Below are positions 2,423-45,800 of a stretch of 46,028 nt of DNA, piece after piece (position 1 is the first letter of the stretch; each line of letters starts with the position of its first letter). The translations under genes were made by a program, and so were the position numbers. Below the pieces are notes generated by a model. The model was not told the origin of the DNA. It worked only from the letters and a program-made list of their open reading frames with translations, and did not search any database. The stretch lies in IMG/VR virus record IMGVR_UViG_3300031963_000269, positions 1 to 46,028 of that record; one strand, given 5' to 3'. The DNA comes from a virus. Lineage: Duplodnaviria; Caudoviricetes.

Positions 2423-2848
2423 TTATACCTGTACTGTAACGCTGTTTAAACTTGCTGTGGCAATCAAATCATTGGGAGTTAACCCATTGTCATTTGCCCT
2501 AGCCCCTCCAATAGGATTCCAGCCCCACTGAAAAACTCTGCTACCACCATCTGGACTTCCGCCAGCCAACTGCTCAGTCCCGTTGCCGGGAATGACTTGC
2601 AAGCCGTTTAAACCTGACGAGTAGTAGCTTAGGTCTGGCCTTGGGTTGCGGACACCTTGCGGGTCGTTTACTGGATACATACCCAATTGCAACTGAGGCT
2701 GATCCGGCTCCCAGCATTCTGGGCAAACCAAGATATTTGCAATCTTGGTTTTGATCGTCAGTTTCTTCAACTGTTTCAACATATACCGCTGACCACAACG
2801 GTCGCATTCCGCAATGGAATACTTGCCAGAGGCAAACGGATTAGGCAT
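2423..2848 (-). CDS. Zn-ribbon (CxxC...CxxC) phage protein
   Basis: MPNPFASGKYSIAECDRCG...LVCPECWEPDQPQL; ATG at 2848 overlaps the end of the upstream gene. Confidence 0.75.
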   Translation of the reverse strand: MPNPFASGKYSIAECDRCGQRYMLKQLKKLTIKTKIANILVCPECWEPDQPQLQLGMYPVNDPQGVRNPRPDLSYYSSGLNGLQVIPGNGTEQLAGGSPDGGSRVFQWGWNPIGGARANDNGLTPNDLIATASLNSVTVQV

Positions 2849-3764
2849 AGAACAAATTCCTTGGAACGTATCTGTCTGAAGCTTTGTCTCGGTCTTCTGT
2901 CGAAGCAAGATACCACTGCTCCTCGTACTCACTCTTCAAGAAGTCACGAACATTCATGGCTTGAGGAATCTTTTGCGACAGGTAGAAGGCCAAGCCAGCC
3001 ACCATGCAGGGAATGAATCGAAATGGAATGTCTTGGTACACCTGACCAGAAGTGCCAGAATCTTGAATGCGGCGCAAGCGGTAGTACGCAAAAATATACG
3101 GGCCACCGCCGTCACCTGTTGGGTAGACATTGATGTTTGGTAGGTTTTGAACCGTCAAGCTTGCCCCGCTCAAATGAGATGCGGCAGTTGTTCCGTTTTG
3201 ACCACGAGCGCAGTTGATGAGTTGATTCCCATCCACAGATTGGTAGTAGATGGTTTCGTTGTCAATCAACACAAAGCCATTGGTCGTCAACTCGTAAATG
3301 TTGTTTACCGTGATGGTGGTGTCGGTTGCAGAGATTGTGCCGTTTAAAGTGGCTGTGGTGGCGTTGGACTGCCCTGATTGGCGGTTGATCCACACCTGAA
3401 TGGGTCTGCCCTGCGCCAGCTTGTTTGGAATCGTCATGTAGGTCGATTCGCTGATGCGGGTGATGTTGATGTCAGACTGTTGAGGTGTACCGTTTCCGGT
3501 ACGGGTTACCGTGTCCAAGAGGTCAATTGTGTCCACGGGGATGGGGTAGCAAGCCTGTCCAGTGACAATGGGTATGAAGCCTTGCTCAATTGTCCAAAGG
3601 TTGATGCCACGGTTTGCCCACTCAATGGTCATAATGTTTAACGACCGTCTAGCTGTCCTCATGTCATAGCCAGTCTTCATTTCCTGACCGCAACGCTCAT
3701 ACGCCTCTTCAATCAAATTGACGAGGTCAAGATTAAACGATGCTGATCCGCTGGTGGTAGACAT
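2841..3764 (-). CDS. Putative head-tail adaptor/connector protein
   Basis: 307 aa; IEEAYERCG...ARRSLN...EWANRGINLWT...CMVAGLAFYL pattern; internal beta-rich insert (RGQNGTTAASH). Confidence 0.65.
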   Translation of the reverse strand: MSTTSGSASFNLDLVNLIEEAYERCGQEMKTGYDMRTARRSLNIMTIEWANRGINLWTIEQGFIPIVTGQACYPIPVDTIDLLDTVTRTGNGTPQQSDINITRISESTYMTIPNKLAQGRPIQVWINRQSGQSNATTATLNGTISATDTTITVNNIYELTTNGFVLIDNETIYYQSVDGNQLINCARGQNGTTAASHLSGASLTVQNLPNINVYPTGDGGGPYIFAYYRLRRIQDSGTSGQVYQDIPFRFIPCMVAGLAFYLSQKIPQAMNVRDFLKSEYEEQWYLASTEDRDKASDRYVPRNLFYA

Positions 3765-3997: not shown

Positions 3998-4269
3998 TCT
4001 TTGTATCCCCCGCCAGCGGCTTTGTACTTCTTGGCAACAAGCTGTGCTTTACGGGCTGACCATTGACCAGCCCCAGTGCCTTGGGTTGCCGCCGCCTTGA
4101 CTTGAGAAACAATCCGTTTGCGCAAGCTGGGCTTGGTGTAATTACCTGCGGCGTTTACACCTCCACCCTCTTTGAACTGTTTAAACGCAGTGTCATCCCG
4201 CCGAGCTTTACGCTTGGCTACAGGCATCTTGGAGGGGGCTATTGCCCCCATTCCACGACTAGCAAGCAC
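3994..4269 (-). CDS. DUF5872-like protein, N-terminal half
   Basis: NYTKPSLRKRI...GQWSARKAQLVAKKYKAAGGGY motif. Confidence 0.7.
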   Translation of the reverse strand: MLASRGMGAIAPSKMPVAKRKARRDDTAFKQFKEGGGVNAAGNYTKPSLRKRIVSQVKAAATQGTGAGQWSARKAQLVAKKYKAAGGGYKD

Positions 4270-6493: not shown

Positions 6494-6739
6494 TCAACAC
6501 TTCCAAGCCCGAAGGCTTTTGTTAATCCTCGAATTTGGATCCTTGGCAGTTTTTTCGCTCGTCAATTTCTTCTTCATCCCTTCCATACGGGCGCAGAAGG
6601 AGTCGCGGCGTTTGCCGCCTTCTGGTTGTGGGCGCTTCAGATTCATCCCTTGAGCCTTCGCCGAAGCTCTCCCTTTGGCGTTTAAACCGCCCTTGGGATT
6701 CTTGCCCTCTGCTCTTTGCCATGCTGGGGATTTAGCCAT
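6494..6739 (-). CDS. DUF6321-like small basic phage protein
   Basis: GGLNAKGRAS...RRDSFCARM...SRINKSLRAWKC motif. Confidence 0.7.
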   Translation of the reverse strand: MAKSPAWQRAEGKNPKGGLNAKGRASAKAQGMNLKRPQPEGGKRRDSFCARMEGMKKKLTSEKTAKDPNSRINKSLRAWKC

Positions 6740-8397: not shown

Positions 8398-8408
8398 GGT
8401 TTAAACGC

Positions 8409-10468: not shown

Positions 10469-11416
10469 TCAAATCTCCAGTTTTAAAACTTCTTTGGCGT
10501 ATTGCTCGGGGGTGATTCCAAGTTTTCGGGCGAGATCAACTTGGGAAGGCTTCAGCTTCAATTTCTTTGAGGCCGTGCTTCTTGAGGCCGGAGCTACGAC
10601 AACGCTCGGTTTCGTACGAGCGGGAGGTTTAGAGTCGATTTCGACTTCCGTTCCTTCGTCTTCCTCGAATCTTTCGGGGAAGCGTTTGCGCATTGTTGCG
10701 TCAATGCGCCTGTAATACTCATCAGTTGTGGCATAGCCAGCACCGTTTTCAGCAACGAGTCTTTCGTGTGTACCCATTGCCAAAGCTCGCATTTCCGAGT
10801 CTGAATCAATCCAAGAGTTACGCTCTCGCCATTTCTCAAACTTCTGGTCACGAGTCGGCTGTTTAGGCCGTTGGGGCGTTTGTACCACAAATTCTTCTTC
10901 CTGAACAGGCCGGTTTTTAAAATTATGTTCAGCCGTTTCTGCTTGGGAAATGGACATCTTGGCTTCAGTCATTGCTTCCTGAGCTTCGATAATCTTGTCT
11001 GTGTCGCCTGATTCGTACGCATCCCGATACTCACGCTTGGCCTTTTCAAGGGCGGCATGGGCATTGGATTTGATGGAATTGATTGCAAAGCTTTCAGTGT
11101 TGTTTACACGCCCTTTGAGGGCTTTGTTTTCCTCAAAAAGCTTTTTGGCAACCTGTATGGCCTCTTCACGCTCACGGTCAGCGGCTTCTTTCGCCCTTCG
11201 TTCATCGTGGTAGACCTTTTTGAAGGCGGCAATCTTTTGCTTGGCGGCGGCTGAATACTCATCCAACTCGTCTTTGTCCAATTCCTCTACAAACTTGGGG
11301 TCTGAGGGGGTTTTGCCACGGTCTTCTTCAGGGGTGTCATCCTCGATTTCAATCTCCAAGTCAGCTGGGTCTTGCTCATCGGGGAACTTGTATTCTTCGC
11401 CTTTGTATGTACTCAT
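10469..11416 (-). CDS. Capsid scaffolding protein
   Basis: Acidic N-terminus, long coiled coil, C-terminal LKPSQVDLARKLGITPEQYAK capsid-binding-type motif. Confidence 0.75.
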   Translation of the reverse strand: MSTYKGEEYKFPDEQDPADLEIEIEDDTPEEDRGKTPSDPKFVEELDKDELDEYSAAAKQKIAAFKKVYHDERRAKEAADREREEAIQVAKKLFEENKALKGRVNNTESFAINSIKSNAHAALEKAKREYRDAYESGDTDKIIEAQEAMTEAKMSISQAETAEHNFKNRPVQEEEFVVQTPQRPKQPTRDQKFEKWRERNSWIDSDSEMRALAMGTHERLVAENGAGYATTDEYYRRIDATMRKRFPERFEEDEGTEVEIDSKPPARTKPSVVVAPASRSTASKKLKLKPSQVDLARKLGITPEQYAKEVLKLEI

Positions 11417-12026: not shown

Positions 12027-14527
12027 TCACCTGTCGTTGGTTTTGTTGGGGGTTTGTTTTTTGCATCATGCAGTTTGAACAGCGACTCTCTGTTTAAACG
12101 GTCTTTGGAAGAGGCCATCTCGTAGCCCAATCGGTGACCGCCAAGGTTGAGTTTTTCCTGTTCTGCTTCTGCTTTTTGAGCCAAAGTCGCCTTTTCGTGG
12201 GCAATCTTGACTCCCAGCTTGTGGCCTTCCAAGTTGGTTTGCGCTTCCAATTTGGCTTCTTCGACCTCCAGTTGAGCCTGTTTGAGGGCTGTATCTGCTT
12301 GGTCTTTTGCCATTTTTCGTTTGATTTCTTCGCCCTTGAGTTGCAATTCCTGCATCTGCATTTGGATGATGGGGTCTTGCTGTTGCTGGGCAATTTGCTG
12401 TTGAGCGGCTTCGGCTTGGTTCTTTTGAAGCAATTGCTGGCTGGCTTGCGCTACCAGACGGGCGATCTGGACTTCGTACTCCTGCGGCAGTTCGTCATCG
12501 TCCTCCGCCATATAAGGCAGGGGAGCGCCAATCTGCTGTTCAATCTGCTGACGGTACTGGAAGCCAAAATGCTCCGCAATGTGCGCCTGAAGACCTGCGG
12601 TAATTTGCTGTGCGTTGGGGCTTTGACCCACAATTGCCGCCGTCTTGGGGTCTTGCAGGAAGTTCATGTGGGAAGCGATGTGAGATTCGTGATCTTGGTA
12701 GATAAATGCCTTGAGCGGTTTGCTCATCATGGCATTCATGTTTTCGCTCAATGGATCACGAGGCTTCTGGTCATCCTCCAGAGGGATAAGCTTTTGGGCA
12801 TTCCTGATGCCCAGCACATCCAGCATTTGGCGGTGTAGCTGTGGCATATTGTAAATACCGGGTGCGCCTTGGGCCAACTGCAAGACCGCCTGATATTGCA
12901 CGATCTTTTGAGCCATTGTGGCGGCATTGGGGTCGCTGACAGGTATGACATCACAGCAGTCATAGTCGGATTTCTTGGCGCTACGGCTACCTTCTTCTGG
13001 CTCGTAGTCATACTCATCTGGGGTGTAGTCCCTGATGATGTCTCGCAACAACACCAATTCCTGCTTCATGGAGTAGTGGATACGGGCTTGAACAGCAGAC
13101 ATCACCTTCAGGGTGCGTTCTAGCAGTGCCAGCGTGGAGCCAACGGGAGCGTTTGCAGACATATCTGCCACGTTTAAATCGCCTGAGCCAGCGGCTCTGC
13201 GGCCTTCTTCCACGATGTTTGCCAGCAACGCCATCAGGACTTGGCTTGGCTCCTTGTATGGAAGCGGCAAGAGGTTGTCTTTGAGTGTTCCGGAGGCAAC
13301 ATCCGCATCTCGCCACTCCCCGGGCGAAATTGGGGTGTCATCGCCCTTGACTCTCATGCCTTTGGTTTTGAATCCGCCGGGCAAATTGCTCAGAGTTCCA
13401 GCGTCCACCAACTGACGGATCAGCGATGTGCCTGACTTAGCAAAAGCACCGATCAGATGAATCAGGCCGAAGTAGTAGAAGCCAAAGCCGGGGACGTAGC
13501 CATAGTGAACGAAGTGGCTTCGTTTCTGATGGGTGGTGTCCTCTGGTCGCCAGTTGCGGCGCACAGCCAGCACGGTTGTGGTGTCTTTGTCGATGGTAAC
13601 AATGTAGGGCAGAGCAATGCCGGTTGGCTCTCCGTTTTCATCGCAGTCTTCAAATCCGGGGATGTCAAGGTCAACTTGGACTTCATAGAACTTGTACCTG
13701 TCGTCTGTAGTCGCCTTGAAGCCCATCTTCTCGGCAATCTTTTTCTCCACCTCATCAAGGCTGGTGCTTGGCTCGCCCAAGTCCTCATCAACGTAAAAGC
13801 CTTGGTGAACCAAACGAGCAAACTCGTTTTTGGTTTTGCGCATCACATGAGTGATACGAGGAGAGTTTTGCAGGGAGGATGCGCCATACGGGACGATGAT
13901 GTCTTCGGCTGGCACAAAGATGGATGTCTGGCGGTCAAGTGCAGGGTCAAAGTAGACCTTTTTGAATGCATTGCCTGAGAGTCCCAATCCCCAAATCATG
14001 CGCTCATGCTCTGGTCGGAACTCTGTCATCACATCCGTCAACTCGTAATTCATGTCATCCTGAACACGGGTGGCGGCTTCTTTTTTCTCTGGAGTTTCTT
14101 TCCCAATGATCTGGGTCTTGACTGGCCCAGCGGCGGGGAATGTCGCCATGATGGTTTCTGCTTGGAACTTGACCAGCGCCTCTGAGAGCAGTGGATGGTA
14201 AACGCCACAAGCGCCTTCCCAAGGTTCTGACCGCTCTTCGATTTTCATGCCGAGGAGTTCAAGCCCATCGACATAGGTTTGCATCCAATCCTTGCGGGAG
14301 CTTAGGTCATCCTCAATGTCACCCAGCAAATCATTGGCAATGGTGGCGAGTTCTTGAGGATCAATGTGTTCTGCAAGATTGGCATCAAAGGGGATGTCAG
14401 GAGTCTTTGTCTCTTCAACTGAAGCATCTTCGTCCTCGCCAATGATCTCAATTTCAATGTCAATTGAGGGGGCTTCCTCTATGACTGCGAGTCCTATTGG
14501 CGCTTGGTACAAACTTTTTTCGATCAT
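12023..14527 (-). CDS. Portal protein
   Basis: 834 aa directly after TerL; GNAFKKVYFD, QLVDAGTLSNLPGGF, Gln-rich coiled-coil tail. Confidence 0.9.
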   Translation of the reverse strand: MIEKSLYQAPIGLAVIEEAPSIDIEIEIIGEDEDASVEETKTPDIPFDANLAEHIDPQELATIANDLLGDIEDDLSSRKDWMQTYVDGLELLGMKIEERSEPWEGACGVYHPLLSEALVKFQAETIMATFPAAGPVKTQIIGKETPEKKEAATRVQDDMNYELTDVMTEFRPEHERMIWGLGLSGNAFKKVYFDPALDRQTSIFVPAEDIIVPYGASSLQNSPRITHVMRKTKNEFARLVHQGFYVDEDLGEPSTSLDEVEKKIAEKMGFKATTDDRYKFYEVQVDLDIPGFEDCDENGEPTGIALPYIVTIDKDTTTVLAVRRNWRPEDTTHQKRSHFVHYGYVPGFGFYYFGLIHLIGAFAKSGTSLIRQLVDAGTLSNLPGGFKTKGMRVKGDDTPISPGEWRDADVASGTLKDNLLPLPYKEPSQVLMALLANIVEEGRRAAGSGDLNVADMSANAPVGSTLALLERTLKVMSAVQARIHYSMKQELVLLRDIIRDYTPDEYDYEPEEGSRSAKKSDYDCCDVIPVSDPNAATMAQKIVQYQAVLQLAQGAPGIYNMPQLHRQMLDVLGIRNAQKLIPLEDDQKPRDPLSENMNAMMSKPLKAFIYQDHESHIASHMNFLQDPKTAAIVGQSPNAQQITAGLQAHIAEHFGFQYRQQIEQQIGAPLPYMAEDDDELPQEYEVQIARLVAQASQQLLQKNQAEAAQQQIAQQQQDPIIQMQMQELQLKGEEIKRKMAKDQADTALKQAQLEVEEAKLEAQTNLEGHKLGVKIAHEKATLAQKAEAEQEKLNLGGHRLGYEMASSKDRLNRESLFKLHDAKNKPPTKPTTGE

Positions 14528-16300: not shown

Positions 16301-16329
16301 AATATAGCACGTTTAAACAGGATTAAGAA
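16301..16329 (-). promoter_or_regulatory. Putative extended -10 promoter of the LexA-like/terL operon
   Basis: TTCTTA-17bp-TATATT with TGn extension; GTTTAAAC in the spacer. Confidence 0.5.
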
Positions 16330-17807: not shown

Positions 17808-17855
17808 GTTGTGATCCTTTTCGCTTGGTTTAAACACTCTGCATTTGCTCTCAGC

Positions 17856-19182: not shown

Positions 19183-19184
19183 AC

Positions 19185-19886: not shown

Positions 19887-19888
19887 AC

Positions 19889-34704: not shown

Positions 34705-34910
34705 TTGATCGGCTCATACTCAGCGTGGCGCTTATGGCAACAGGATGGAATGGCTTGTTCCCCGAACCCACGCCGCCAGTGGAAAAAACGCTGAAGCAAA
34801 AAGCAAAAGAACGACAGCTAAGTGAAATCTGTCTAAGAAAAGACAAAAGACACCAAAGTGAAACAGTCAAACGTATGTGTAAACGATGGAAGGAGCAACA
34901 AGGTGCTTGA
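34701..34910 (+). CDS. Hypothetical protein with N-terminal hydrophobic segment
   Basis: AAGGAG RBS; two Cys in a basic tail. Confidence 0.62.
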   Translation: MIDRLILSVALMATGWNGLFPEPTPPVEKTLKQKAKERQLSEICLRKDKRHQSETVKRMCKRWKEQQGA

Positions 34911-35398: not shown

Positions 35399-35615
35399 TT
35401 GGAGGGTTTACACAGAAGAAGAAATTGCAAAGAGGGGCGATCCTTTTGCGGTGTTAAACAAAAACGCTTTGCGAAGCGCCAATGTCACAGAGGGTGTTCA
35501 CAAACTACGGCAGAAGAACCCATCTCACGGAACACTGCATGGCTTAACAAAAAAGCGTTTAAACATCAAGCAACCAGAAATGATGAGGTCACCAAATGCC
35601 AAGGCCAAAAAGTGA
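35376..35615 (+). CDS. Hypothetical protein
   Basis: AGGAG RBS; NAFDWR motif. Confidence 0.62.
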   Translation: MTAVNAFDWRVYTEEEIAKRGDPFAVLNKNALRSANVTEGVHKLRQKNPSHGTLHGLTKKRLNIKQPEMMRSPNAKAKK

Positions 35616-36460: not shown

Positions 36461-36848
36461 TATTAAATGGGAACTGGTGAGAAACAAAATTGAAAAACAA
36501 CATTACTCAGCCATTGCTGGACTGGGATGCTCACTCTGTCGCCATCTTGGCTACGGTGAAACTCCGTGTGAAATCCACCATATACGAAGAGCAGGGAAGC
36601 GAGACAACGCCCCTGTCATTGGACTATGCCCCGAACACCACAGAGGAAACAGCGGAGTCCACGGCTTAGGTCGGAAAGCCTTTGAGAGGAAATACAAAAC
36701 CTCCGAGGAAGAATTGCTTGTTAAATCCCTAGAGATTCTGATAGCCGCAGGTGTTGGCGGGCCACTCGTGCAAGCTGGGCTTGAAGCTCGTTTACACGCC
36801 TTAACCGCTCATCTGGCGGAATATTCTGGCTATTCTGTATCAACCTGA
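36450..36848 (+). CDS. Ref-like (RecA-dependent) HNH nuclease
   Basis: GCSLC...CEIHHIR...IGLCPEHHRG..GVH..G.KAFE; start uncertain (ATG 36450 or GTG 36477); 3' end overlaps the convergent giant gene. Confidence 0.72.
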   Translation: MQNNIKWELVRNKIEKQHYSAIAGLGCSLCRHLGYGETPCEIHHIRRAGKRDNAPVIGLCPEHHRGNSGVHGLGRKAFERKYKTSEEELLVKSLEILIAAGVGGPLVQAGLEARLHALTAHLAEYSGYSVST

Positions 36849-39800
36849 TTTGGCTGTTGATCTTGCCCATGTTGTCGGCAATTCGATTCAAAGCAGGGGC
36901 GGCACGGAGTAGTTTGACCTTGTCTTCGTCAGCATAAATCTCTTTGATGGCCTCGTAAGCGCCAGAGGACTTGTAGTCTTTGACTGCCGCAGAGACTTCA
37001 TTTGCTGTTCTGTACAACTCATAGAAGTCGCCCACCACCTTGTCCCTTGTGGGGTCGGTGATGAAGGATTTGAAGAACGGTTGCTGTGCAAGGTTCTTGT
37101 CCATTGGGGTTTCGCCCTTGACCTCAGTCACCGCCTTATCAACCAAAAAGGTCGTGAAGGTTCCCCATTCAGCAAAGTAACCTTGGATCAGGTGATCAAG
37201 CTTGGCTGGTGAAAGACCGAGCTTTCCAAGTCCAGCCTCGCTCAATGCCTTGGCTGTCTCAGATGCCCTGCGTCCACGCAACTCAACAGGAAGCTTGGAC
37301 TCACCAATGCTTTCAATTGGACTGAATGTAAACAGCGAGTAGTTGGTAATTGCTTCAAAGGCGGGTTTAAACAATTGAGGCAACGGAACCGCATCCCCGG
37401 GGAGGCTATTCAAAAGACCAGACCTGTAGGAGGCAATGACTTGCTTGCCTGTGCTGTTTCCATTCAAATAGCGAACCATCGCCTCTGGAACTGTCTTGAG
37501 CAAGAAGCCAACTTCAAATGGGGTTGGGATTTTGATGAATCCATCGCCAAGTGGATTGGTGATAAGCCAGTTGTTGTCACGGATGTAGTCGGGTACTTTC
37601 TTGTACTCCTCATCATCTTGCATCATCATGGCGTAGGCAATGCTCATTAGACTCATCATCAATGCTCTGCGTTTAAACATTGCACGGGCCTCTGCTCGCT
37701 CCTTGGGCGGGAGTCCGTATCCAGTTGCGGCTTTGTATAAAACATCCAAGCTGGAGATTGCGGCAGACAAGAATGGAGTCATGTGACGCAATGCGGTAAG
37801 GACTGGCGAGTTGCCACGCACCGCAAAGTTGATCGACTCACGAGCCTTGTACACGGCTTCATTGGTGGCATCAACATCGTTTAAACCACGAGCCAAAGCT
37901 TCCTGCTTGGCTTTTTTGTAGATTGCCACACGAGTTGCCGCATCAGATGCCTCATGCATTTCCATCAGCTTACTGAGCATGGCAGAGGTATTGCCTCTAC
38001 CTGAGAACTTCTGACCAGCGGTTTCCAAGAAGTCTTGCAAGTCCAATGTGGAGTCAACAGGGCCAATCACGCCACGCTCTGCAAGCAAGCGAGCTTCTGC
38101 CGAATCTCTTCTGAGGATGCTGATGTATTCCTTGGCTGAGTGCAAAGGAGTCACCAAAGGACTATTGGTCAAGGCGGCTTGGATTGGGTCACGAATCAAC
38201 TGGCGAATCCAGAACATTGGGTTTAACAAAGCGCCAGCACGAAGAACACCTGTTGCACCCGAAATCGCCTTCATCAACCAGTTAAGCTCGTAGTGCATGG
38301 ACTCAAATGCGGCTACATCGTTCGGGTTGTCAACCACCACAGAGACAATGCCTTCCTTGTTGGCTTGCGGGTGGTTTTGATCTTTGTACCGCAAGTTGAT
38401 ATCTCTGTCGTTTGGCGTGGTGATCTTTGCCAATCCAAGTCCGCTCAATTGCTCAACTGCAACCTTGCGGGTCTGGTTCTGGTAAGCGCCAGCCAGCATT
38501 GAGGCGTACTGCTTACTGACGTTCTCCCAGATGTTGCGGAAGAGTTCAGCGCCCTCTAGCTGATGGGTCTTGGCTACGCTCTTTGTTCCTTTGTAAGAGT
38601 GACCAAAGCCCTCACCCATGCGCTCTTCCATGTCAGCAATGGAGGCGGCAAGGGATACATAGGATTTCTTGCCACGATACTCGCTGGCGGTCTTGGCATC
38701 CAGCAAGCCAACCTTCTCCCATAGATCAACCAGTGAGGTGTTTACATTTTTCCAAATAGAGAAGATGTCCCTGAGTTCTGGGACGTTCTGCATTTGTTGC
38801 TTTGCCCATGCAATCTGGGCCGCATCAACTTGCTTCTCTCTGTTTAAATGCTTGTCTGGAGGATTGACGGCGTTGTGCGCCGCATCCTCTTGCATGATCT
38901 CTTCACCACGCAAGGCACGAGCAACTTCAGCAACGTACCCACGACCGTCAAGACCAGAGTCCTTCACATACTGATTGTTGTTTAAACCGTCTGCCAGCAG
39001 TTGGCTGTTTGCCAAGTTGTTGACCGCATCGTTCTTGATGATGATGGAGCCATCGGTGTTGAGTACAGGTACACCGCTTGTCAAACCATTTTTGATCAGG
39101 TTGATGGACTGCGCTCTTGCACGGTTCAACATATCAGCACGAAGCTGACCCTTGCTGTCAAAGATGGGCAGGTTCTGCAACCGCTTGGTCAAGCCAGCAT
39201 TGGGGTCAACCCAGTTGATGCGAAGCTTTGTCCAAAACTCGTTGGGGTCTTTGTGAAAGACCTCATGCACATCATTTGCCACTTTTTGGATTTGCTGTCC
39301 CGCTGTGTAAACAGGTGTCTGTGCAGTCAGTTGCTTGGGGGGTGCGTTGAGCGCAAAACGGATGTCAGGATTGGTAACATCAAATGCTCCTTTGTTGCCT
39401 GTAGCAGATTTAACAGAAGTTCCTTTATTCCATGCGTATACATCACTACCATAGGAATAAAGTTTTTCTGGGTCAACGCTACTTTTAGCACGGGGGCCAA
39501 TATCAACTACTTGTCGAGCAACCAATACAGTACCCGCTGGCAGGGCTTGCGCTCGGCGATCCATCTCAAAGTAATTAAAACGGCGGCTACCATACTTATC
39601 GACAGTTACAGGGAATTCAATTAACTTATCCGCTTTAATATACAACGGAGTGACTGCACCGGTTTCTTCAAAATCAGCCTCTGGATTAGCATAGCTACTC
39701 GCTACATAGGGGGATGAAGAGCCAAATGCGGCGTACCCTTTCCGTGCTTCTGCGTTCAATGCGCCTTCCGCTATACCATTTTTCTCTAAACCAACCACCC

Positions 39801-42800
39801 CCCGATAAACAACAAGTGGGTTACCGTTTCCATCAACAACTTTGCTGTCGCCAAACCACCGTTTAAACTCAGGCGTATTGGTTGCACGGAGGCTGAAGCG
39901 GATGTCAGGGTTATCGATGCTGTATGTGCCAATGTTGCCTGTGGCAGATTTGACCTGTGCTGGGTCATAGACAGCCAAATTCTTTCTGCCGCCTTCAAGC
40001 ACAAAGAAGCCATCGTGACCAAGCTTCTTGATTGCGTTTTGCACTTTCTCTGACTCTATCGTGTTCCAGTGACCACGCTCAATAAAGCCACGATTCTTGT
40101 CACCATACTTCTTCTCGCCCTCTTTCAAGAAGCGGTTGTATTCTGGCTTGTTCAGTTCTTTGGTAAGCGCATCGACTTGTTCTTTGTTTCCAAAATCAAA
40201 TGGGTTATCCGAACTGACAAACATTGGAATAATGTTTTGGCGAGTCGGCAATTGATTCTTCAAAACATATGTAACTTCTTGCTCAATTGAAGGTGGGATA
40301 AAACCAAAAGTCACATCCATTTGAGAGAATTCAGACTTGATCTCTGCAAATTCTTTTAAAGATATGTCTCCATTTTTGCGAGCAACATTTGCCCCATCCA
40401 TGATGTACTTGTTTCTCTCTTCTGGTGTCGCTCCGTTGAAGAGTTCTTTGATCATGTAGGCTTCGCTTGCATCTCCAAAGTCTTCTGCAAATGTTGGGTC
40501 AGAAGTCAAGAAGATGGCGTTAGCTTGTTTGGGCTTGAACTCAGTGATGTCACGAGCAGTACCGTGGAACATGACTAGAGGATTGCCTTTGTAATCCACA
40601 ATTTTGCTGTTACCAAACCAGCGTTTAAACGCAGGAGTGTCTGGCGCTTTAATTCTGGATGCTGGCTGGCGCAAAGAGAATTTAAATTTTGTAGCGATAG
40701 GTGCGGAGGGAGGCAGACTTCCAAGCTGTTGCTCAGGAGTCAACTCTTCCATCAATTTGCGCATAGGAACATCTGTCAGCGGATCACCGCTCAATGCATA
40801 TTGAATAGGTGGCAGAGCCGCCTTCTGAATGGCATAGGGGCGATCAATCAAAGGAATGGCTTCAACGCCTTTGGTAAAGTTCTGCCAAGCATTTTGCAAG
40901 CGAGTCTCAGCAATTAGCGCCCATTTAGCCATTGGGTCTTTGGTAACTGCCAAATGGTTACGAGCGGCGGTAAGCTCACCTCTTGGCCCAAACTCCGCTG
41001 GAGTCAAGTTGTGGGCGTAGTAGTCATGGACTGCACGAAGCAAGTCGTTGTACAGCATGGGGTAGCCGTTGGCATCCTTCAGGCCAGAGTCTTTGAGCAA
41101 AGGATGGGACTTGAAGTTTGATCCCTTTGGGCCAAATGTGTCGGGCGATGTTTTGTAAACCTTAAGTCGGTTGTTTAAATTGACATCGTCACGCATGGCT
41201 CTACTGCCAAGCTCTTTGGGGTATATGTCTTTGTTGTCTGCTTCAATGCGAGCAAGCAGTCCACCCTTCTTTTGCCAATCGGAGTCTGGTACACCGTAGT
41301 GGTCTTGCAAATACTTGATGGCGCTGTCGGCTTCAGCCTCGGTCATGCCACGAGTCAAGTCGGCTTTGAGTTCTTCAACTCCCTTTTTGCTAAAGTAGTT
41401 ATAGGACTTGCCATCCATCATCACATCAGTGACAACCTCAATCTTGATGGGGAGTATCTTGTACTGCTCAATCAGTTCACGAGTAAGAGCGGTGTATGCC
41501 CTGCGGACAATCGGACGCTTGAGATCGTTGTTGGGCAATGCCTCAAAAATTTGGGCAAGGCTTTTTTGCGCCGCAATCTCGTCCTTGTTTAAACCCTTCT
41601 GCTTGAACCCAGTGACAGGCTCGCCTTTGAAGTATTCAGCAATTAGCTTTGAGCTTCGGGTGTCGTGAGCTTGCTTGGGACGAACGTCACCTGCAATTGA
41701 TTCATATCCAAGTCTGGCTCCGTCTCCAGTTCCATAGACGTAGAGCCGTTCAACACTTGGTTTGACCGCTTTATCGCTTCTGCCCACCACTCGGGCGAGG
41801 GCCTTGTCGAGGGATTTGACTTGCTGGATGTATTCTTCATAAGCCTTCTCTGTGTTTTCAAATGGGTCTACAAAGTAGGTGGTGGCAGTCCACTGGGTCT
41901 TGCCGTCCTTTTCTTTGCCAGCCACGGTGATTGCTGGGATACCTGTTTCTTTGATGATCTCTGCAAGCTCGTCATTTGTCAACTGGCGATTGATGCCCAT
42001 CTTCCATACGTTGGTAGCATATGAACCATCGCCAAAGTCGTGACCAAATGGATATGCCGTAGCCTGACGGACATGAACTTGTTGTTGATTAAAGTTGGTT
42101 GCAAACCTTGCCAGTGCCGCCATAACTTCTTTGCGGTCTGCCTCTGGAAATGCAAGAGAGGCATTGATGGCTGGCTCACGCTCGGAACCATACGCACCCA
42201 TGACAGGCTCAATCTTGACCTTGGCAGATGCACCACTGAGCAAATGCTCAAGGTGCGCCTTGGCTGTGTCTTGCAACACGGCATAAGCTTTCTCATCTCC
42301 GCTCATGGAGCGTTGATATAGCTCGTTTAAACCGGGTATGCTGGATGTGACATTTGAGAGGTTAACCGTGATCTTTTCACGAATGTCTTTCTCTTCACGC
42401 AGTCTTACGCCACCTTCTGGCTGATAGGACTTGTCATAGCTAGAGCCACCTTCTGCAATGGTTTTGCCAGCGTCACTGCCAACCCATTGGGGGTCTTGCA
42501 TACCGCCAGCAATCTTGATGATCTTCTCTCTGGCTTCATCAAATGTTTGTTCGCCATTCTTGTACTTCGTCCACTGCCCACGGATGGGGGCCTTCATGGT
42601 GGCTTTCATATTTTCATCGAACAAGCCACGCACAGCCTCCCAAGTGATGGACTGCATCTCTCTGGCCTTCATGCCAACCTGCTTGGCGGCATCACGATAG
42701 GCATCAGCAATCAAGCCATATGTACCACCAACACCAATGTTGTCGGCAGTGCCAGTTGCTCCAAAGTTTTGTGCAACAGCCAAGTCAGTGCCAGCCAAAG

Positions 42801-45800
42801 CTTCAAACAAGCCAGCCGCCACGGCGTGGGTGTCAATGGTCACATGGCTGATGTCGCTGTTGGGGGCAACGATGTTGTTGTAGAACGAACGAATCTTATG
42901 TTCAAAGCCAAGCTGTTGGCTGATGTTGTCTCTGCCGCCGTCACGGTAAATGCTGACTGATTTTTCAATAGGATCGTAGGTAGACCACATCATGGTGGAT
43001 GGCTTGATCTCGCCCTTCTTGTCAGGCATATTCATCACCAGCCCACCAAAACCGCCCTCTGGAGTGACGATGCGGTAGGTGCGAGACTGGTAGGCTTCAT
43101 CGTAGGCACGGACAAAGGCGGCGGCAGACTCAATGTCCATGTCCTTAAGCTTTGCTCCAGACTTGGCTACCTTCTCAATCTTCTTGTATGCAATCTCACG
43201 CTTCTCACGCTCTTTGCGGTCTGCAATGCTTTTGACATAACTCTGGGCGTACTTGAGCATATTCTCATCCCAAGCCATGTCTCCACGCTTGGCAAGAATG
43301 TCGATGGCACGTTCAGCCATTGATACGTTCTGAAACCAATCCTTCTGCGGAGACATTGCCGCCAAGATGCCAGACACCTGCATATCTGTCAGGTCGTACT
43401 CCTTGCCCATCTGCTTGGCAATCTTGTTTGCACCGTCATACCAAAGCTTGCTACGGTTGCGGATTTCAGCAGGGACAGAGTTGTACAAGAAAAGCAAGTT
43501 GTTCACGATGTTCTTTTTGAACAGCGGGATCACTTGATCATCTGCAATGTCTTTTGGAATGAAGCCGTAGTCCTTGATGGCTTTGATTGTTCTGGCTTTG
43601 ATGGCTGGATTTATTTCCATTGCCTCAAGGACAGCCTTCTCGTCAATTGAGTAGATGTCTTCCAGCGGATCGAACTTAGCCTTAACGCCAGTTGCGTTTT
43701 GGGTGGAGATTTCTTTCTCACCCTTTTCGGCCTTGCGAACAAAAGAGAACCGACCAGCCTCACGGCGACCACTTTCCTGATTCATCTGAACCATCAGGTC
43801 AAGCGATTTTTCTTCGCCAACAAAATCAGTGACAGCTTTGTTTAAACGCCTAAACGCCATTGTTTGATTGCGCTTCAAGGCGTTTGGAGCTTTGCCTCTA
43901 CCGCCAACGCCAACAGGTGTGGCTCGTCCGGAAGCCTCGGCATCTGCAAGCAAAAGCTTCTCATGCAAATCCCAAATGTTCTGTGGGATGCCTTCTGGCG
44001 CTTTGGACACAGGCTCACGCTTGGCAAACTTACCTTCTGTTGTTGCTGGCGCTTTGGGCTTGTACTTGGTTGCCTCAATGCCACGGAAGATGGAGTCCGA
44101 GGTGTTGAAGCCTTGACCAGAGAAAGTGTTCTTCAGAGATTGGAAGAACTGCTTTAAACGGTACATCAGGTTACCAACCATTCCGGCGGGCAACTTGTTG
44201 TTGAAGTGTTTAAACGCTTCGGCAATGCCTTCTTCTTGCAGGTACTCGTCAAAGCCAGCCATGTCGCCGTTGTTGTCTTGGGCGTACTGTTGACGGTAAC
44301 GCTCCTGAGTGTCTGGCGTGATGAACTGAGGAATCCAATCAGACTTGGCTTTGTTGGTCAGCACCTGCCACTCTTGCGGCGTAAACGCATTCAGATTCTT
44401 CAGAGCGTGGACGGTTTCATGACGCAGAGTCCCTAAGTGGTTGTCTGAGTCCAGCGCCACGGTGACAAGGTTCTGGGCGTAGTAGCCATCGGCGGTTCCG
44501 TTGCCAAGGCTGTCCATGATTTGCAGACCAGTTCCCTCTAAGCCATATTGCTTAAGTGCAGGGATTAGGGTCTTGCGAACCTGTTGCACCTTTTGCTGGA
44601 CTTCAGGGGCGATGACAGGGGTTGTTAGGACTGGAGGAACGGTGTCTAGGACGGTCTGAAAGACCTGAGACAAGTCTAGCCTTCCTTGGGTATCAAACTC
44701 TTGTTTGGCGGCTTCAAATTGAGTTCTGAGCGCAGGGTTTTGCTTCAAGCCATCTGACAGCTTGAGAGCCAAAGCGGCAGATTCTTCTGGGGCTACAGTG
44801 GGTTGAACTGTTGCCGCCTCTGGAGCCAACAAGGTGGCGTTCTGTTTACCCAGCGCCTCGACTTCGGCTTGGGTGGAAGACAACTCCTGACCAAGAGGAG
44901 ACGATGTATCGATAGCCCCACCAATGGGGGTGGTTGAGGTAAGTGGAGCTTTGTCTTGATAAAGCTGTTGGCCTTGAGCCAAGCCCGTATCAACAGCAGA
45001 CTGTTTAAACGTCTCAGGAGCAACCCCGGCAGGTGCAATACCCTGATCGGTCAGGGTATCTGGCTGATCGGTAAGGGGGTTGACCTGATCGGTAGGGGGT
45101 CTGATACCCTGATCGGTTGGACGGGCAGGGCCTTCCAAGTACCGACCAATTGGGGCAAGTGTGCCGCCAAGCACAGCGCCGCCAATGAAACTGTCGAAAT
45201 ATTCTTTTCTGGCTTCTGCATCTGTGATGTTTAAACCAGCTTGCAACCGCTCAAGCGACTGCTGGGCCGCTTCGGTCAAACCTTCTCGGGTTGCCGTCTT
45301 TGCGGTAACACCGCCATAGTCTTTAAGGGTGGACATCAGCCCACGCTTGGCAATGTCTACCGCCTCTTTTTCTGCAAGGCTGATACCTGCGGAGGCAAAC
45401 ATCCTACGGATCAGCGGAGTCATACCCAAAGAGTATGTGTCGAGCAGTGCTTGAGGGACAGCGCCAGCAACGGCATAGCCAAGATTGGTTTCTTCAAGAC
45501 CTTTCTTGTCAGCCTCCATTTGGCGAGCAAGATTGGAACCAGTGTATTGAGCAGTACCAGCTAAACCAGCGGCAATTGCGGGAGCAAGGATAGGCGCACT
45601 TGGAACAGCAACCGCACCCAAGCCAGCGGCGGCAACTGGAGCCGCTATATAAGGAAGAGAGCCGCCAAGCAGTTCACGAAACTTTTGCCCAGTAGGCTCA
45701 AAAAAACCTTTTTCCGTTGGCTGGAATATTTCTCTTGCACGAGCTTCATGTTTGGCGCTTTCCGCCTCGGCTTCTTTTATTGGAAGAATTCCAAGCTTGC

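What the first reader, a model, noticed from the sequence alone, without database searches (positions are those of the whole stretch)
2444..45236. Palindrome GTTTAAAC is repeated about 37 times across the genome (HIP1-like hyper-abundance)
Seen, counted by eye: exact copies at 2444, 2606, 4179, 6680, 8399, 12092, 14590, 16311, 16843, 17828, 18001, 19177, 19881, 21210, 22731, 25049, 25843, 27359, 27428, 27859, 29783, 31110, 31506, 32503, 35557, 37365, 37671, 37879, 38980, 39861, 40623, 41587, 42325, 43840, 44208, 45003 and 45229, plus many one-off variants (GTTTACAC/GTGTAAAC, GTTTAAAT/ATTTAAAC). About 0.7 copies are expected at equal base frequencies. Sites occur in coding DNA in different frames (FK, LN, V-stop), between RBS and ATG (19177, 19881), in promoters and in a terminator hairpin, so no single peptide motif explains them. 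Phages usually lose palindromes, so the gain suggests either selection for a binding or modification site (genome coating, packaging, translocation, self-marking, decoy for a host protein) or a site-creating repair bias as proposed for cyanobacterial HIP1. No cognate methylase is visible in the window.
Basis: partly seen in the sequence, partly recalled or inferred. Interest (0 to 1): 0.88.

Follow-up and report, generated by a model that had tools for sequence, protein, structure and literature searches.

The report
Phage DNA word with its reader
This uncultured phage has rewritten codons and even protein sequences to carry the palindrome GTTTAAAC 37 times, and the same word travels through unrelated phages and plasmids together with one small zinc-ribbon protein that likely binds it, which would be an undescribed way for mobile DNA to label itself.

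Summary
All 37 GTTTAAAC sites are at the stated coordinates. Chance gives 0.7-1.7, and about 1.6 of the 30 coding sites under codon-preserving shuffles. The word is kept by selection:
- Sites are intact in relatives 9 times more often than control 8-mers.
- Peptide contexts that permit a site are about 3-fold enriched.
- Spacing is more even than random.
- The phage lacks 27 of the 64 six-base palindromes.

It is not HIP1-like in the host sense. Bacterial bins holding such contigs are not enriched, and no methylase was found.

The word goes with one gene, window 20110-20700, a small SprT-like zinc protein:
- 27 of 35 word-rich IMG/VR contigs have it (9 of 9 near-complete ones), against 1 of 36 word-poor contigs.
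- It is the only protein the window shares with four otherwise unrelated word-rich phages.
- Cultured phages of Proteobacteria and a cyanobacterium, and two plasmids, with the gene carry the word.
- Actinophage homologues go with the variant GTTTACAC, with the same Y/R flanks.
- Two contigs keep only the C-terminal zinc-ribbon module and are still word-rich.

Binding itself is inferred, and the function is unknown.

The parts
2444..2451 (.). GTTTAAAC site, non-coding or gene edge by my ORF calls
2606..2613 (.). site, Phe-Lys frame in ORF 2574-2807 (-)
4179..4186 (.). site, non-coding
6680..6687 (.). site, Leu-Asn frame in ORF 6494-6739 (-); intact in 13 of 14 aligned relatives
8399..8406 (.). 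site just downstream of the major capsid gene (inside a doubtful small ORF); intact in 6 of 12 aligned relatives
12092..12099 (.). site, Leu-Asn frame near the 3' end of the portal gene; intact in 14 of 14 aligned relatives
14590..14597 (.). site, Leu-Asn frame near the 3' end of the large terminase gene; same alignment column in 41 of 74 TerL genes
16311..16318 (.). site abutting the start of ORF 16038-16310 (-), a LexA-type winged-helix protein; intact in 11 of 11 aligned relatives
16843..16850 (.). site over the stop of ORF 16642-16848 (+)
17828..17835 (.). site, Phe-Lys frame at the 5' end of ORF 17181-17837 (-), small-terminase-like
18001..18008 (.). site, Phe-Lys frame in ORF 17897-18127 (+)
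19177..19184 (.). site forming the spacer between GGGAG and ATG 19185
19881..19888 (.). site forming the spacer between GGAG and ATG 19889, at the head of the small ORF that precedes the SprT-like gene
21210..21217 (.). site, Phe-Lys frame in the MoxR/CbbQ-type AAA gene
22731..22738 (.). site, Leu-Asn frame in ORF 22238-23353
25049..25056 (.). site, non-coding, just beyond the stop of the primase/helicase gene
25843..25850 (.). site, Leu-Asn frame in the primase/helicase gene; intact in 16 of 17 aligned relatives
27359..27366 (.). site, Phe-Lys frame in ORF 27309-27569
27428..27435 (.). site inside the inverted repeat GGGAGAT...ATCTCCC (terminator-like on the minus strand)
27859..27866 (.). 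site, Phe-Lys frame in the RusA-like gene
29783..29790 (.). site, non-coding by my ORF calls
31110..31117 (.). site, Phe-Lys frame in ORF 30709-31137
31506..31513 (.). site, Leu-Asn frame in ORF 31343-31528
32503..32510 (.). site, Leu-Asn frame in the RNA polymerase alpha-CTD-like ORF
35557..35564 (.). site, Leu-Asn frame in ORF 35376-35615
37365..37372 (.). site, Phe-Lys frame in the 3088-aa polyvalent protein gene
37671..37678 (.). site, Phe-Lys frame, polyvalent protein gene
37879..37886 (.). site, Leu-Asn frame, polyvalent protein gene
38980..38987 (.). site, Leu-Asn frame, polyvalent protein gene
39861..39868 (.). site, Phe-Lys frame, polyvalent protein gene
40623..40630 (.). site, Phe-Lys frame, polyvalent protein gene
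41587..41594 (.). site, Leu-Asn frame, polyvalent protein gene
42325..42332 (.). site, Leu-Asn frame, polyvalent protein gene
43840..43847 (.). site, Leu-Asn frame, polyvalent protein gene
44208..44215 (.). site, Phe-Lys frame, polyvalent protein gene
45003..45010 (.). site, Phe-Lys frame, polyvalent protein gene
45229..45236 (.). site, Leu-Asn frame, polyvalent protein gene
20110..20700 (+). Gene of the candidate reader (P0001, 196 aa). The N-terminal part is a zincin fold with HELSH. The C-terminal part carries the YPHA...K.Q.TR...CxxC...C..H zinc-ribbon module. The one-off words GTTTAAAT at 20102 and 20695 bracket the gene.
19889..20107 (+).
4153..4160 (+). variant word GTTTACAC (the form that is hyper-abundant in actinophages)
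11102..11109 (+). variant word GTTTACAC
14761..14768 (+). variant word GTTTACAC
17060..17067 (+). variant word GTTTACAC
23527..23534 (+). variant word GTTTACAC
35406..35413 (+). variant word GTTTACAC
36790..36797 (+). variant word GTTTACAC
18266..18273 (-). variant word GTTTACAC on the minus strand
34877..34884 (-). variant word GTTTACAC on the minus strand
39305..39312 (-). variant word GTTTACAC on the minus strand

Best explanation
GTTTAAAC (best form Y-GTTTAAAC-R) is a real DNA word that this phage keeps by selection about every 1.2 kb. It is likely the docking site of the phage's own small SprT-like zinc protein (gene 20110-20700), whose C-terminal zinc-ribbon module is predicted to read it.

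Shown here:
- The excess, and the conservation of individual sites.
- The cost paid in codons and in amino acids.
- The link between word and gene across unrelated phages and plasmids.
- The switch to GTTTACAC with the actinophage branch of the protein.
- Word-rich genomes in which the protease motif is lost, or in which only the C-terminal module remains.

Inferred:
- The protein binds the word, probably as a dimer on double-stranded DNA. The word is a palindrome, and the asymmetric variant shows no strand bias relative to genes.
- The many sites serve to hold the protein, with or without its protease domain, on the element's own DNA.

My best guess at the purpose, held with low confidence (about 0.25): it acts on proteins bound to incoming phage or plasmid DNA, such as host defence nucleases, silencers or roadblocks, in the manner of the DNA-dependent proteases SPRTN/Wss1 and the plasmid anti-restriction protein ArdC.
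For: Excess and selection:
- 37 sites against 0.66, 1.74 under Markov-3, and about 1.6 of 30 coding sites under codon shuffles.
- 14 of the 18 Phe-Lys contexts and 16 of the 29 Leu-Asn contexts that permit a site use it, although TTA is only 97 of 1126 Leu codons.
- Peptide contexts that permit a site number 18 against 6.2 and 29 against 10.1; 0 of 1000 amino-acid shuffles reach either figure.
- Window sites are intact in relatives in 58 of 88 cases at 60-75% DNA identity (control 8-mers 7.3%), 26 of 30 at 75-85% (25.5%) and 29 of 29 at 85-93% (45.5%).
- The coefficient of variation of the gaps is 0.71, P=0.027.

Link to the gene, in contigs chosen by the word alone:
- Word-rich records: 27 of 35 encode a homologue. 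The 8 without are fragments of 18-35% completeness. All 9 of the 9 that are at least 78% complete have it.
- Word-poor records: 1 of 36 has it, and 0 of the 9 that are at least 81% complete.
- The background rate of the gene in cultured phages is 164 of 50,697 records.
- It is the only window protein with a homologue in all 12 genomes compared. Complete phage G040 shares nothing else with the window, and G029, G045 and G048 share only a 22-24% identical terminase besides.

The reverse test, starting from the gene:
- All 9 of 9 loci found through the G029-type protein hold 1.3-3.4 sites per kb, and none holds the control word.
- Cultured carriers, word count against control word: Dinoroseobacter phage R5C 17 v 0, Pseudanabaena phage Pan1 16 v 0, Magnetospira plasmid 18 v 1, pUT1 5 v 0, Arya 7 v 1, Mano 4 v 0, Persinger 4 v 0, ep3 4 v 0.
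- The word or its one-base shift is the top de novo 8-mer in 8 of the 10 genomes with a full-length homologue of the Gram-negative type.

Covariation:
- Actinophage homologues go with GTTTACAC: Phives 21, Marky 35, Percival 14, control word 0 in each. The Gram-negative set has 0-1.
- The flanks are the same: Y at -1 in 21/21, 34/35 and 14/14; R at +1 in 21/21, 28/35 and 14/14.
- Homologues whose C-terminus lacks the K.Q.TR and Cys module (Dismas, Epa5, FP1) have no word.

Which domain matters:
- HExxH is lost in the word-rich G025, G029 and G048.
- G038 and G068 keep only a 55-63 aa C-terminal module.

Autoregulation-like placement:
- A site lies 18-74 bp upstream of the gene in Arya, Mano, Persinger, Pan1, the Magnetospira plasmid, G045, G048 and G029. 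The GTTTACAC form lies likewise in Phives and Marky. In G038 a site lies 45 bp upstream of the mini-ORF.

Fold:
- Residues 1-135 resemble minimal zincins, SPRTN and Wss1 (Z 7.1-7.8).
Against: - No binding was tested: every link is a correlation. No tool here folds protein with DNA, and the homodimer job was never accepted.
- Many word-rich contigs are kin, so the 27 of 35 are not independent. I count roughly 8 or more independent lineages (taxonomy lines).
- Some carriers have few sites (Persinger, Mano and ep3 have 4 each).
- One fragment, G070, has the gene but none of the 10-base form.
- One complete 20.5-kb phage, G033, has 7 sites against 0 of the control word and no homologue.
- Phives and G048 have similar C-terminal modules but different words, so I cannot name the residues that set the specificity.
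- In the window itself the nearest site is 222 bp upstream of the gene.
- P0001 does not reach Pfam's threshold for SprT-like (12.2 bits against 25.6).
- The proposed purpose rests on analogy alone, and the loss of HExxH in three word-rich genomes shows that a protease cannot be the whole story.
Confidence: 0.6

Rival explanations
1. The word is read by some other factor, from the host or the element. The SprT-like protein is linked only indirectly: for instance it acts on or with the true reader, or it rides in the same gene module.
For: - Binding is untested.
- Complete phage G033 has 7 sites and no homologue.
- The protease domain is dispensable, so the protein could be an accessory.
- In plasmids the gene sits next to parA and an RHH gene, which encode DNA-binding partition proteins.
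Against: - No other protein is shared among the unrelated word-rich genomes.
- The hosts span Alpha-, Beta- and Gammaproteobacteria, Cyanobacteria and Actinobacteria, so a host reader would have to be near-universal. Yet word-poor phages from the same scan lack the gene (1 of 36).
- The word changes with the protein branch and vanishes when the C-terminal module is replaced.
- A stand-alone C-terminal module is enough.
Confidence: 0.17
2. A HIP1-like mutational drive: a methyltransferase that marks the word, together with a biased short-patch repair, creates and maintains the sites without selection for binding.
For: - It has the same look as HIP1: an 8-base palindrome, in all permitted frames, in coding and non-coding DNA.
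- Variants at the first and last base (GTTTAAAT/ATTTAAAC, 10 against 4.2) are among the commonest one-off forms. As I recall, this was also noted for HIP1.
Against: - No DNA methyltransferase or Vsr-type family was found in the window's scanned ORFs, in 49 of the 59 ORFs of at least 90 aa of the complete relative G025, or in 39 of the 43 such ORFs of complete G040.
- Bacterial bins that hold such contigs are not enriched. The word against the control word is 41 v 45, 12 v 47, 7 v 50, 89 v 70 and 6 v 21. In three of the bins the matches that one search lists include 5, 5 and all 6 inside the one small contig.
- One-off variants are not depleted.
- The trait is found in E. coli, Arthrobacter and Streptomyces phages alike.
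- The actinophage word is not a palindrome.
Confidence: 0.07
3. The word is a Chi-like or other protective signal read by a host nuclease or recombination machine. It is selected in phages and plasmids because it spares incoming linear DNA.
For: - Density and even spacing resemble Chi or uptake signals.
- Sites are densest around the early region in G029, G045 and G048.
- The phage encodes its own Erf, exonuclease and RusA genes.
Against: - Known Chi words are asymmetric and enriched in the host chromosome (recalled).
- Here the candidate host bins are not enriched. A scan of 33 of the 64 parts of 185,579 species genomes for three sites in a row returned 120 stretches. Of the 20 I read, 15 were tandem repeats and 5 were small contigs with dispersed sites.
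- One signal would have to serve five bacterial classes.
- This rival does not explain the link to the gene.
Confidence: 0.05
4. The excess is a by-product of extreme palindrome avoidance or of codon and dipeptide usage, not a signal.
For: - 27 of the 64 six-base palindromes are absent, and only five are above expectation.
- Phe-Lys and Leu-Asn dipeptides are mildly common (45 against 37.6; 69 against 51.1).
Against: - Codon-preserving shuffles give about 1.6 coding sites against 30.
- Of 62 TTTAAA hexamers, 37 carry both G and C flanks.
- The rare TTA codon is used.
- Sites are conserved far above control 8-mers.
- The same word is the top word in GC-rich cultured phages that have other avoidance profiles.
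Confidence: 0.02

Closest known systems
HIP1 (GCGATCGC) and alternate highly iterated palindromes of cyanobacteria
   Same: An 8-base palindrome tens of times over chance, spread through coding and non-coding DNA in every permitted frame, about one per kb, of unknown purpose.
   Different: - HIP1 is a property of host chromosomes and goes with cognate methyltransferases.
- Here the word belongs to phages and plasmids of many phyla.
- It is absent from candidate host bins.
- No methylase was found.
- It goes with a small zinc-ribbon protein instead.
Stoperators of Cluster A mycobacteriophages (about 24-36 sites of 13 bp bound by the L5 gp71-type repressor; recalled)
   Different: - Stoperators are asymmetric, oriented with transcription and mostly between genes.
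- Here 30 of 37 sites are inside genes and the word is a palindrome.
- The asymmetric actinophage form shows no orientation bias.
- Density reaches 3 per kb.
KorB operators (12 palindromic OB sites) on IncP plasmid RK2 (recalled)
   Same: A palindromic site dispersed over a mobile element and read by an element-encoded protein. The plasmid homologues of the gene here lie beside parA.
   Different: KorB is a ParB-family protein with a few sites, mostly at promoters. P0001 matches no ParB family, and its sites lie mainly in coding DNA.
SPRTN/Wss1 DNA-dependent metalloproteases, and the plasmid anti-restriction protein ArdC (the roles are recalled; the structures 6mdx and 5xbn are)
   Same: - A small zincin domain with HExxH joined to a zinc-containing DNA-binding part.
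- Fold match Z 7.6 to SPRTN and 7.1 to Wss1.
- Carried by phages and plasmids, as ArdC is.
   Different: - Those proteins bind DNA without a known sequence word.
- P0001 is below Pfam's SprT-like cut-off.
- In three word-rich genomes HExxH is gone, and in two the whole protease domain.
Chi, and the uptake sequences DUS/USS (recalled)
   Same: Short words kept at about one per kb by selection for recognition by a protein machine.
   Different: Those are words of host chromosomes, are asymmetric, and are read by host machines. This word belongs to the mobile element and is palindromic.
DNA-triggered metalloprotease and regulator pairs: IrrE/DdrO, ImmA/ImmR, CapP/CapH (the structures 3dti, 8sln and 7t5t appear as weak fold hits; the roles are recalled)
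   Same: A small zinc protease whose action depends on DNA, found in mobile elements and defence islands.
   Different: Those sense single-stranded DNA and cut a partner repressor. No partner gene is conserved here, and the DNA signal is a specific duplex word repeated over the whole element.

Membership tests
HIP1-type highly iterated palindrome | Palindromic octamer at tens of times the chance frequency, in all permitted frames | tested here: met
HIP1-type highly iterated palindrome | Genome-wide property of the cellular (host) chromosome | tested here: not met
   Five bacterial bins holding such contigs give, word against control word, 41 v 45, 12 v 47, 7 v 50, 89 v 70 and 6 v 21. The triple-site scan of 33 of the 64 parts of the species genomes returned 120 stretches; of the 20 I read, 15 were tandem repeats and 5 were small contigs with dispersed sites. 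The true host is unknown, so this is a test of candidates only.
HIP1-type highly iterated palindrome | Cognate DNA methyltransferase present | tested here: not met
   No methyltransferase family in the window's ORFs or in complete G025 and G040. A host enzyme cannot be tested.
Stoperator-type dispersed operator array | Many copies of one short site across the element | tested here: met
Stoperator-type dispersed operator array | Sites asymmetric, oriented with transcription, mostly intergenic | tested here: not met
   The word is a palindrome and 30 of 37 sites are in coding DNA. The GTTTACAC form is co-oriented against anti-oriented with genes 7 v 8, 17 v 10 and 4 v 7.
Stoperator-type dispersed operator array | Bound by an element-encoded repressor | not testable with these tools
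   Needs EMSA or ChIP. Only the co-occurrence with P0001 is shown.
SprT / SPRTN / Wss1 zinc proteases (for the protein P0001) | HExxH zinc-binding motif | tested here: met
   HELSH in P0001. The motif is lost in the homologues of G025, G029 and G048.
SprT / SPRTN / Wss1 zinc proteases (for the protein P0001) | Reaches Pfam PF10263's gathering score | tested here: not met
   12.2 bits against a cut-off of 25.6. 2 of the 120 listed homologues carry PF10263. Cultured homologues are annotated SprT-like protease by their depositors.
SprT / SPRTN / Wss1 zinc proteases (for the protein P0001) | Shared fold of the protease domain | tested here: inconclusive
   Z 7.8 to abylysin, 7.6 to SPRTN 6mdx, 7.1 to Wss1 5xbn, over about 93-102 residues. 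These are middling values by the tool's own note. The best Foldseek E-value is 4e-3.
SprT / SPRTN / Wss1 zinc proteases (for the protein P0001) | DNA-dependent proteolysis | not testable with these tools
   A bench assay is needed.
Chi / uptake-sequence type host signals | Word enriched in the host chromosome and read by a host machine | tested here: not met
   the hosts of carriers span five classes.
Type II restriction-modification target (PmeI-type site; the enzyme name is recalled) | Phage avoids the site, or carries or meets a cognate methylase | tested here: not met
   The site is enriched rather than avoided, while 27 other six-base palindromes are purged. No methylase was found.

The most novel reading that the evidence does not exclude
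This is a portable two-part self-address system of mobile DNA. The first part is a zinc-ribbon module of about 50 residues, found alone, fused to a live SprT-type protease, or fused to a dead one, that reads Y-GTTTA(A/C)AC-R. The second part is the word itself: phages and plasmids of Proteobacteria, Cyanobacteria and Actinobacteria have each rewritten their codons and proteins to carry it every 0.3 to 5 kb. The element can thereby tell its own DNA from the host's and bring an effector to it, for instance to strip or destroy host defence proteins sitting on incoming DNA.
Probability: 0.3. Interest if true: 0.95.

Novelty: new variant of a known kind. Interest (0 to 1): 0.86.

Why it matters
Phages are expected to purge short palindromes, and this one has purged 27 of the 64 hexamers, yet it pays in codons and amino acids to keep one octamer. 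The word and a candidate reader gene travel together through unrelated phages and plasmids of several phyla, and the word changes by one base when the protein branch changes. That turns an unexplained sequence oddity into a testable protein-DNA pair.

If the pairing holds, it would be a widespread and so far undescribed way for mobile elements to address their own DNA. That bears on anti-defence, on genome annotation (a word that flags a gene, and the reverse) and on the old question of what highly iterated palindromes are for.

Cultured, tractable carriers exist: E. coli phage vB_EcoM-ep3, Enterobacter phage Arya, Dinoroseobacter phage R5C, and Arthrobacter, Microbacterium and Streptomyces phages.

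I found no paper on it in three searches of the held library. The preprint on the Arthrobacter homologue does not mention the word.

Tried and rejected
- Megablast of 20 kb of the window against cultured phages found no match. Distant blastn found only short terminase matches.
- I hunted for a host with the word. The triple-site scan of species genomes returned 120 stretches; of the 20 I read, 15 were tandem arrays and 5 were small contigs with dispersed sites. The five bins holding those dispersed-site contigs are not enriched. The host stays unknown.
- I looked for a phage methylase or Vsr and found none.
- A by-product of palindrome avoidance or codon use: rejected.
- The asymmetric GTTTACAC form shows no strand bias relative to genes, so I dropped a transcription-coupled reading.
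- The double variant GTGTACAC is not enriched: 0 in Phives, Marky and Percival, 1 in the window.
- I looked for another palindrome in the actinophages Phives and Dismas; none stood out.
- The small ORF 19889-20107 as an alternative reader: it is not shared with the unrelated genomes.
- Foldseek against the PDB gave nothing at E <= 0.001. A sequence profile against the PDB gave only E 0.26.
- The complex prediction homodimer job was never accepted because the queue was full, so there is no result of any kind.
- The scan's own notes by place and by sequence held nothing.
- My first paper search was badly framed and returned irrelevant papers.

Full report
**1. The observation**

How much chance would give:
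- Dinucleotide-preserving shuffles give 0.66 (largest 3; 0 of 100 reach 37).
- A Markov-3 model gives 1.74.
- Shuffling synonymous codons within each gene, 500 times, gives 8.6 (largest 15). Seven of these are the non-coding sites, which those shuffles leave untouched, so about 1.6 coding sites are expected against 30 seen.
- The word and its one-base shifts are the three commonest 8-mers of the window, and the top hit of a de novo scan of all 8-mers.

The flanks are otherwise unrelated, so this is not a dispersed repeat element. There is a mild preference for Y at -1 (29 of 37) and R at +1 (26 of 37).

The window is a 46-kb IMG/VR record rated 74% complete. It carries:
- large terminase, portal and major capsid genes;
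- a primase/helicase, an Erf-type annealing protein, a PD-(D/E)XK exonuclease, RusA and a small HNH protein;
- a MoxR-type AAA and vWA pair;
- a 3088-aa polyvalent protein.

**2. Selection at the DNA level**

In coding DNA only two frames avoid the TAA stop, and both are used: 16 sites read Leu-Asn and 14 read Phe-Lys.

- Of the peptide contexts that could hold a site, 14 of 18 (Phe-Lys) and 16 of 29 (Leu-Asn) do. This is despite TTA being a rare Leu codon, 97 of 1126.
- Those contexts are themselves three times commoner than in amino-acid shuffles within genes: 18 against 6.2 and 29 against 10.1, with 0 of 1000 shuffles reaching either figure. The proteins have therefore been bent to the word.
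- Non-coding DNA, about 5% of the window, holds 7 of the 37 sites.
- Spacing is more even than random placement (CV 0.71, P 0.027). The same holds in Pan1 (P 0.004), the Magnetospira plasmid (0.019), G046 (0.006) and G011 (0.0002), but not in G025 (CV 1.18), nor in G029, G045 and G048, where sites cluster.
- The phage avoids palindromes to an extreme degree. 27 of the 64 six-base palindromes are absent where about 10-12 of each are expected, and CGCG occurs 3 times against 128. Only TTTAAA, AAGCTT, CAATTG, TTGCAA and TGATCA are clearly above expectation.

**3. Relatives**

About 593 IMG/VR stretches encode a relative of the terminase. In the 80 best:
- The word occurs 556 times in 795 kb, against 5 for the control word CAAATTTG.
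- 70 of 80 loci have at least 0.4 sites per kb, and 1 of 80 has none.

Individual sites are conserved. In blastn alignments of the window with 95 related loci, window sites are intact as follows (the counts are not phylogenetically independent):

| DNA identity of the alignment | Window sites intact | Control 8-mers intact |
|---|---|---|
| 60-75% | 58 of 88 | 7.3% |
| 75-85% | 26 of 30 | 25.5% |
| 85-93% | 29 of 29 | 45.5% |

Relatives also hold 73 sites where the window has none.

In 74 terminase genes the site sits at one of two nearby columns near the 3' end (41 and 24 genes).

The nearest cultured relatives by terminase (58% and 57% identity) have 3 and 0 sites in about 60 kb. The trait therefore belongs to a subclade, and, as shown below, to other phages too.

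**4. Not a host word**

- A scan of the viral collection for two sites 40-70 bp apart found many contigs with 1-4 sites per kb and the same Y/R flanks.
- A scan of species genomes for three sites in a row covered 33 of 64 parts and returned 120 stretches. Of the 20 I read, 15 were tandem repeats and 5 were small contigs of freshwater bins with dispersed sites.
- The five bins are not enriched as whole genomes. The word against the control word is 41 v 45, 12 v 47, 7 v 50, 89 v 70 and 6 v 21. In three of them the matches that one search lists include 5, 5 and all 6 inside the one small contig.

The host of the window remains unknown.

**5. The gene that goes with the word**

A tblastn of the window's proteins against the word-selected loci showed one protein recurring even where nothing else matched. 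It is window 20110-20700 (P0001): 196 aa, with HELSH and a C-terminal Cys/His module. I then tested it.

Sample: from the 139 loci I took the contigs of 10-90 kb (80 loci). 77 records were held and searched.

Definitions:
- Word-rich means at least 0.45 sites per kb in the first batch, and at least 0.25 ten-base sites per kb in the second.
- Word-poor means under 0.2 per kb.

Results:
- With P0001 as the query, 24 of 35 rich records have a homologue. With a profile of 29 homologues, 27 of 35 do.
- The 8 rich records without it are 18-35% complete. All 9 rich records of at least 78% completeness have it.
- Of the 36 poor records, 1 has it (G070). Of the 9 poor records of at least 81% completeness, none does.
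- Six records of the first batch are intermediate; two have the gene and four do not. Among the four is the complete 20.5-kb G033, with 7 sites and no homologue. That is a mild counter-example.
- In cultured phages the gene is rare: 164 of 50,697 records.
- Among all window ORFs it is the only one with a homologue in all 12 genomes compared. Complete phage G040 shares nothing else with the window, and G029, G045 and G048 share only a 22-24% identical terminase besides.

**6. The reverse test and the covariation**

Starting from the G029-type protein, 9 of 9 loci hold 1.3-3.4 sites per kb and none holds the control word.

Cultured elements with a homologue of 32-47% identity. The counts are, and the C-terminal modules:

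| Element | GTTTAAAC v control | GTTTACAC (both strands) | C-terminal K.Q.TR + Cys module |
|---|---|---|---|
| Dinoroseobacter phage R5C | 17 v 0 | 0 | kept |
| Pseudanabaena phage Pan1 | 16 v 0 | 0 | kept |
| Magnetospira plasmid | 18 v 1 | 1 | kept |
| Sphingobium plasmid pUT1 | 5 v 0 | 1 | kept |
| Enterobacter phage Arya | 7 v 1 | 0 | kept |
| Achromobacter phage Mano | 4 v 0 | 0 | not examined |
| Pseudomonas phage Persinger | 4 v 0 | 0 | kept |
| E. coli phage ep3 | 4 v 0 | 0 | not examined |
| Arthrobacter phage Phives | 0 | 21 | kept |
| Streptomyces phage Marky | 2 | 35 | kept |
| Microbacterium phage Percival | 2 | 14 | kept |
| Microbacterium phage Dismas | 0 | 0 | KSRSGK instead |
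| Pseudomonas phage Epa5 | 0 | 0 | unrelated tail |
| Bordetella phage FP1 | 0 | 1 | unrelated tail |

- The control word for GTTTACAC is 0 in Phives, Marky and Percival. The Markov-3 expectation in Phives is 0.5.
- The actinophage form has the same flanks: Y at -1 in 21/21, 34/35 and 14/14; R at +1 in 21/21, 28/35 and 14/14. It shows no orientation bias relative to genes.
- In the de novo scan, the word (or GTTTACAC) or its one-base shift is the top 8-mer in the window, R5C, Pan1, both plasmids, G040, G045, G029, Phives, Marky and Percival. It is fourth in Arya and absent from the top six in Persinger.
- The window itself has 10 copies of the actinophage form (1.5-4 expected), and its relative G025 has 19.

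**7. Which part of the protein matters**

- HExxH is lost in the homologues of G025, G029 and G048, all word-rich.
- In G038 (2.1 sites per kb) and G068 the profile matches only positions 141-187, in open frames of 60-63 residues.
- In G038 this is a 55-aa ORF holding just the KQTTR...C...CPAC module. There is no protease domain upstream, and a site lies 45 bp before its start.

The C-terminal module is therefore the constant partner of the word, and the protease is an optional passenger.

The model of P0001 (pLDDT 84) has a zincin domain at residues 1-135. It resembles abylysin (Z 7.8), SPRTN (7.6), selecase (7.2) and Wss1 (7.1), which are middling scores. P0001 is below Pfam's SprT-like cut-off (12.2 v 25.6 bits) and gives only weak zinc-ribbon hits for the tail.

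[quoted passage not shown] The preprint does not contain the word.

**8. Placement of sites relative to the gene**

A site lies shortly upstream of the gene in many independent elements:
- 18-21 bp in Mano, Persinger and Arya.
- 57-74 bp in G045, G029, G048, the Magnetospira plasmid and Pan1.
- 38 and 63 bp, in the GTTTACAC form, in Phives and Marky.

In the four cultured phages with only 4-16 sites per genome this is very unlikely by chance.

Elsewhere the nearest upstream site is farther: 222 bp in the window (at the head of the small ORF before the gene), and 382-1094 bp in R5C, G040, G046 and G025.

In G029, G045 and G048 the sites pile up in the 8 kb around and after the gene.

In plasmid pUT1 the gene heads a parA-RHH pair next to repA. 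In the Magnetospira plasmid it lies near parA, a nuclease gene and ssb.

**9. Reading**

Shown:
- a selected word;
- a gene that goes with it across at least eight lineages of phages and plasmids in several phyla;
- a one-base change of the word with the protein branch;
- sufficiency of the C-terminal module for the association.

Inferred: that the module binds the word on duplex DNA.

Guessed, by analogy with SPRTN/Wss1 and ArdC (recalled): that the many sites keep the protein on the element's own DNA, so that it can act on proteins bound there.

No methylase was found in the window or in complete G025 and G040. That, together with the spread over unrelated hosts, argues against a HIP1-type methylation and repair drive. 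A host reader is hard to square with the range of hosts and with the absence of the gene from word-poor phages.

Weak points:
- There is no binding test.
- The samples are related to one another.
- G033 and G070 are exceptions.
- I cannot name the specificity-determining residues.
- The homodimer fold was not available.

**10. Novelty**

Three searches of the held paper library found nothing on these words in phages. The scan itself noted the pairing once before, on another genome (e1-8347478). New here, as far as I can see:
- the GTTTACAC branch with identical flanks;
- the dead-protease and stand-alone C-terminal forms;
- the site placement next to the gene;
- the two-way test on word-selected and gene-selected samples.

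The nearest known kinds are dispersed operator arrays (stoperators, KorB sites) for the mechanism and HIP1 for the look. It fails defining features of each.

Noticed in passing
whole window: Extreme palindrome avoidance. 27 of the 64 six-base palindromes are absent (about 10-12 of each expected), 52 of 64 are below 0.55 of expectation, CGCG occurs 3 times against 128 and GGCC 65 against 208. Other word-rich contigs show the same habit with different exempt palindromes. This suggests unmodified DNA facing hosts with many restriction systems.
   Followed up: partly
window 8571-28025, mostly 16-21 kb: A second over-represented word, TGCGAACG (12 copies on both strands against about 1.5 expected), is concentrated in the divergent regulatory and replication region. 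It is also among the top words of close relatives. Possibly an operator or promoter element.
   Followed up: partly
L322, L327, L337, L339 (terminase relatives): Some relatives carry other top 8-mers whose overlaps suggest longer palindromes of the CAATGCATTG and TTGCAATTGCAA kind, beside a lower density of GTTTAAAC. These may be further word and reader pairs.
   Followed up: no
window 36721-45987 (-): A 3088-aa polyvalent protein with LPD38, DUF7178 and ART-PolyVal (ADP-ribosyltransferase) domains, a fifth of the window. It holds 12 of the 37 sites.
   Followed up: no
window 32187-32627 (+): A phage ORF with a clear RNA polymerase alpha-subunit C-terminal domain (E 1.4e-14). Possibly a decoy or adaptor for host transcription.
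   Followed up: no
window 20102-20109 and 20695-20702: The one-off word GTTTAAAT sits directly before the ATG of the SprT-like gene and over its stop codon, so near-sites bracket the gene.
   Followed up: no
the 37 sites, flanks: In the window the mixed flank pairs C..A and T..G (14 sites) outnumber the perfectly palindromic pairs C..G and T..A (4 sites). About 10 of each are expected from the single-position frequencies. In the GC-rich cultured phages, C before and G after the word dominate.
   Followed up: no
G065 (IMG/VR record, 58 kb, complete): Its homologue of the SprT-like gene has one in-frame TAA within the match, in a word-rich genome.
   Followed up: no
window 20719-24166 (+): A MoxR/CbbQ-type AAA gene, a 371-aa ORF and a CobT-like vWA gene follow the SprT-like gene, and they are kept with it in family members. 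They are absent from the unrelated word-rich phages.
   Followed up: partly
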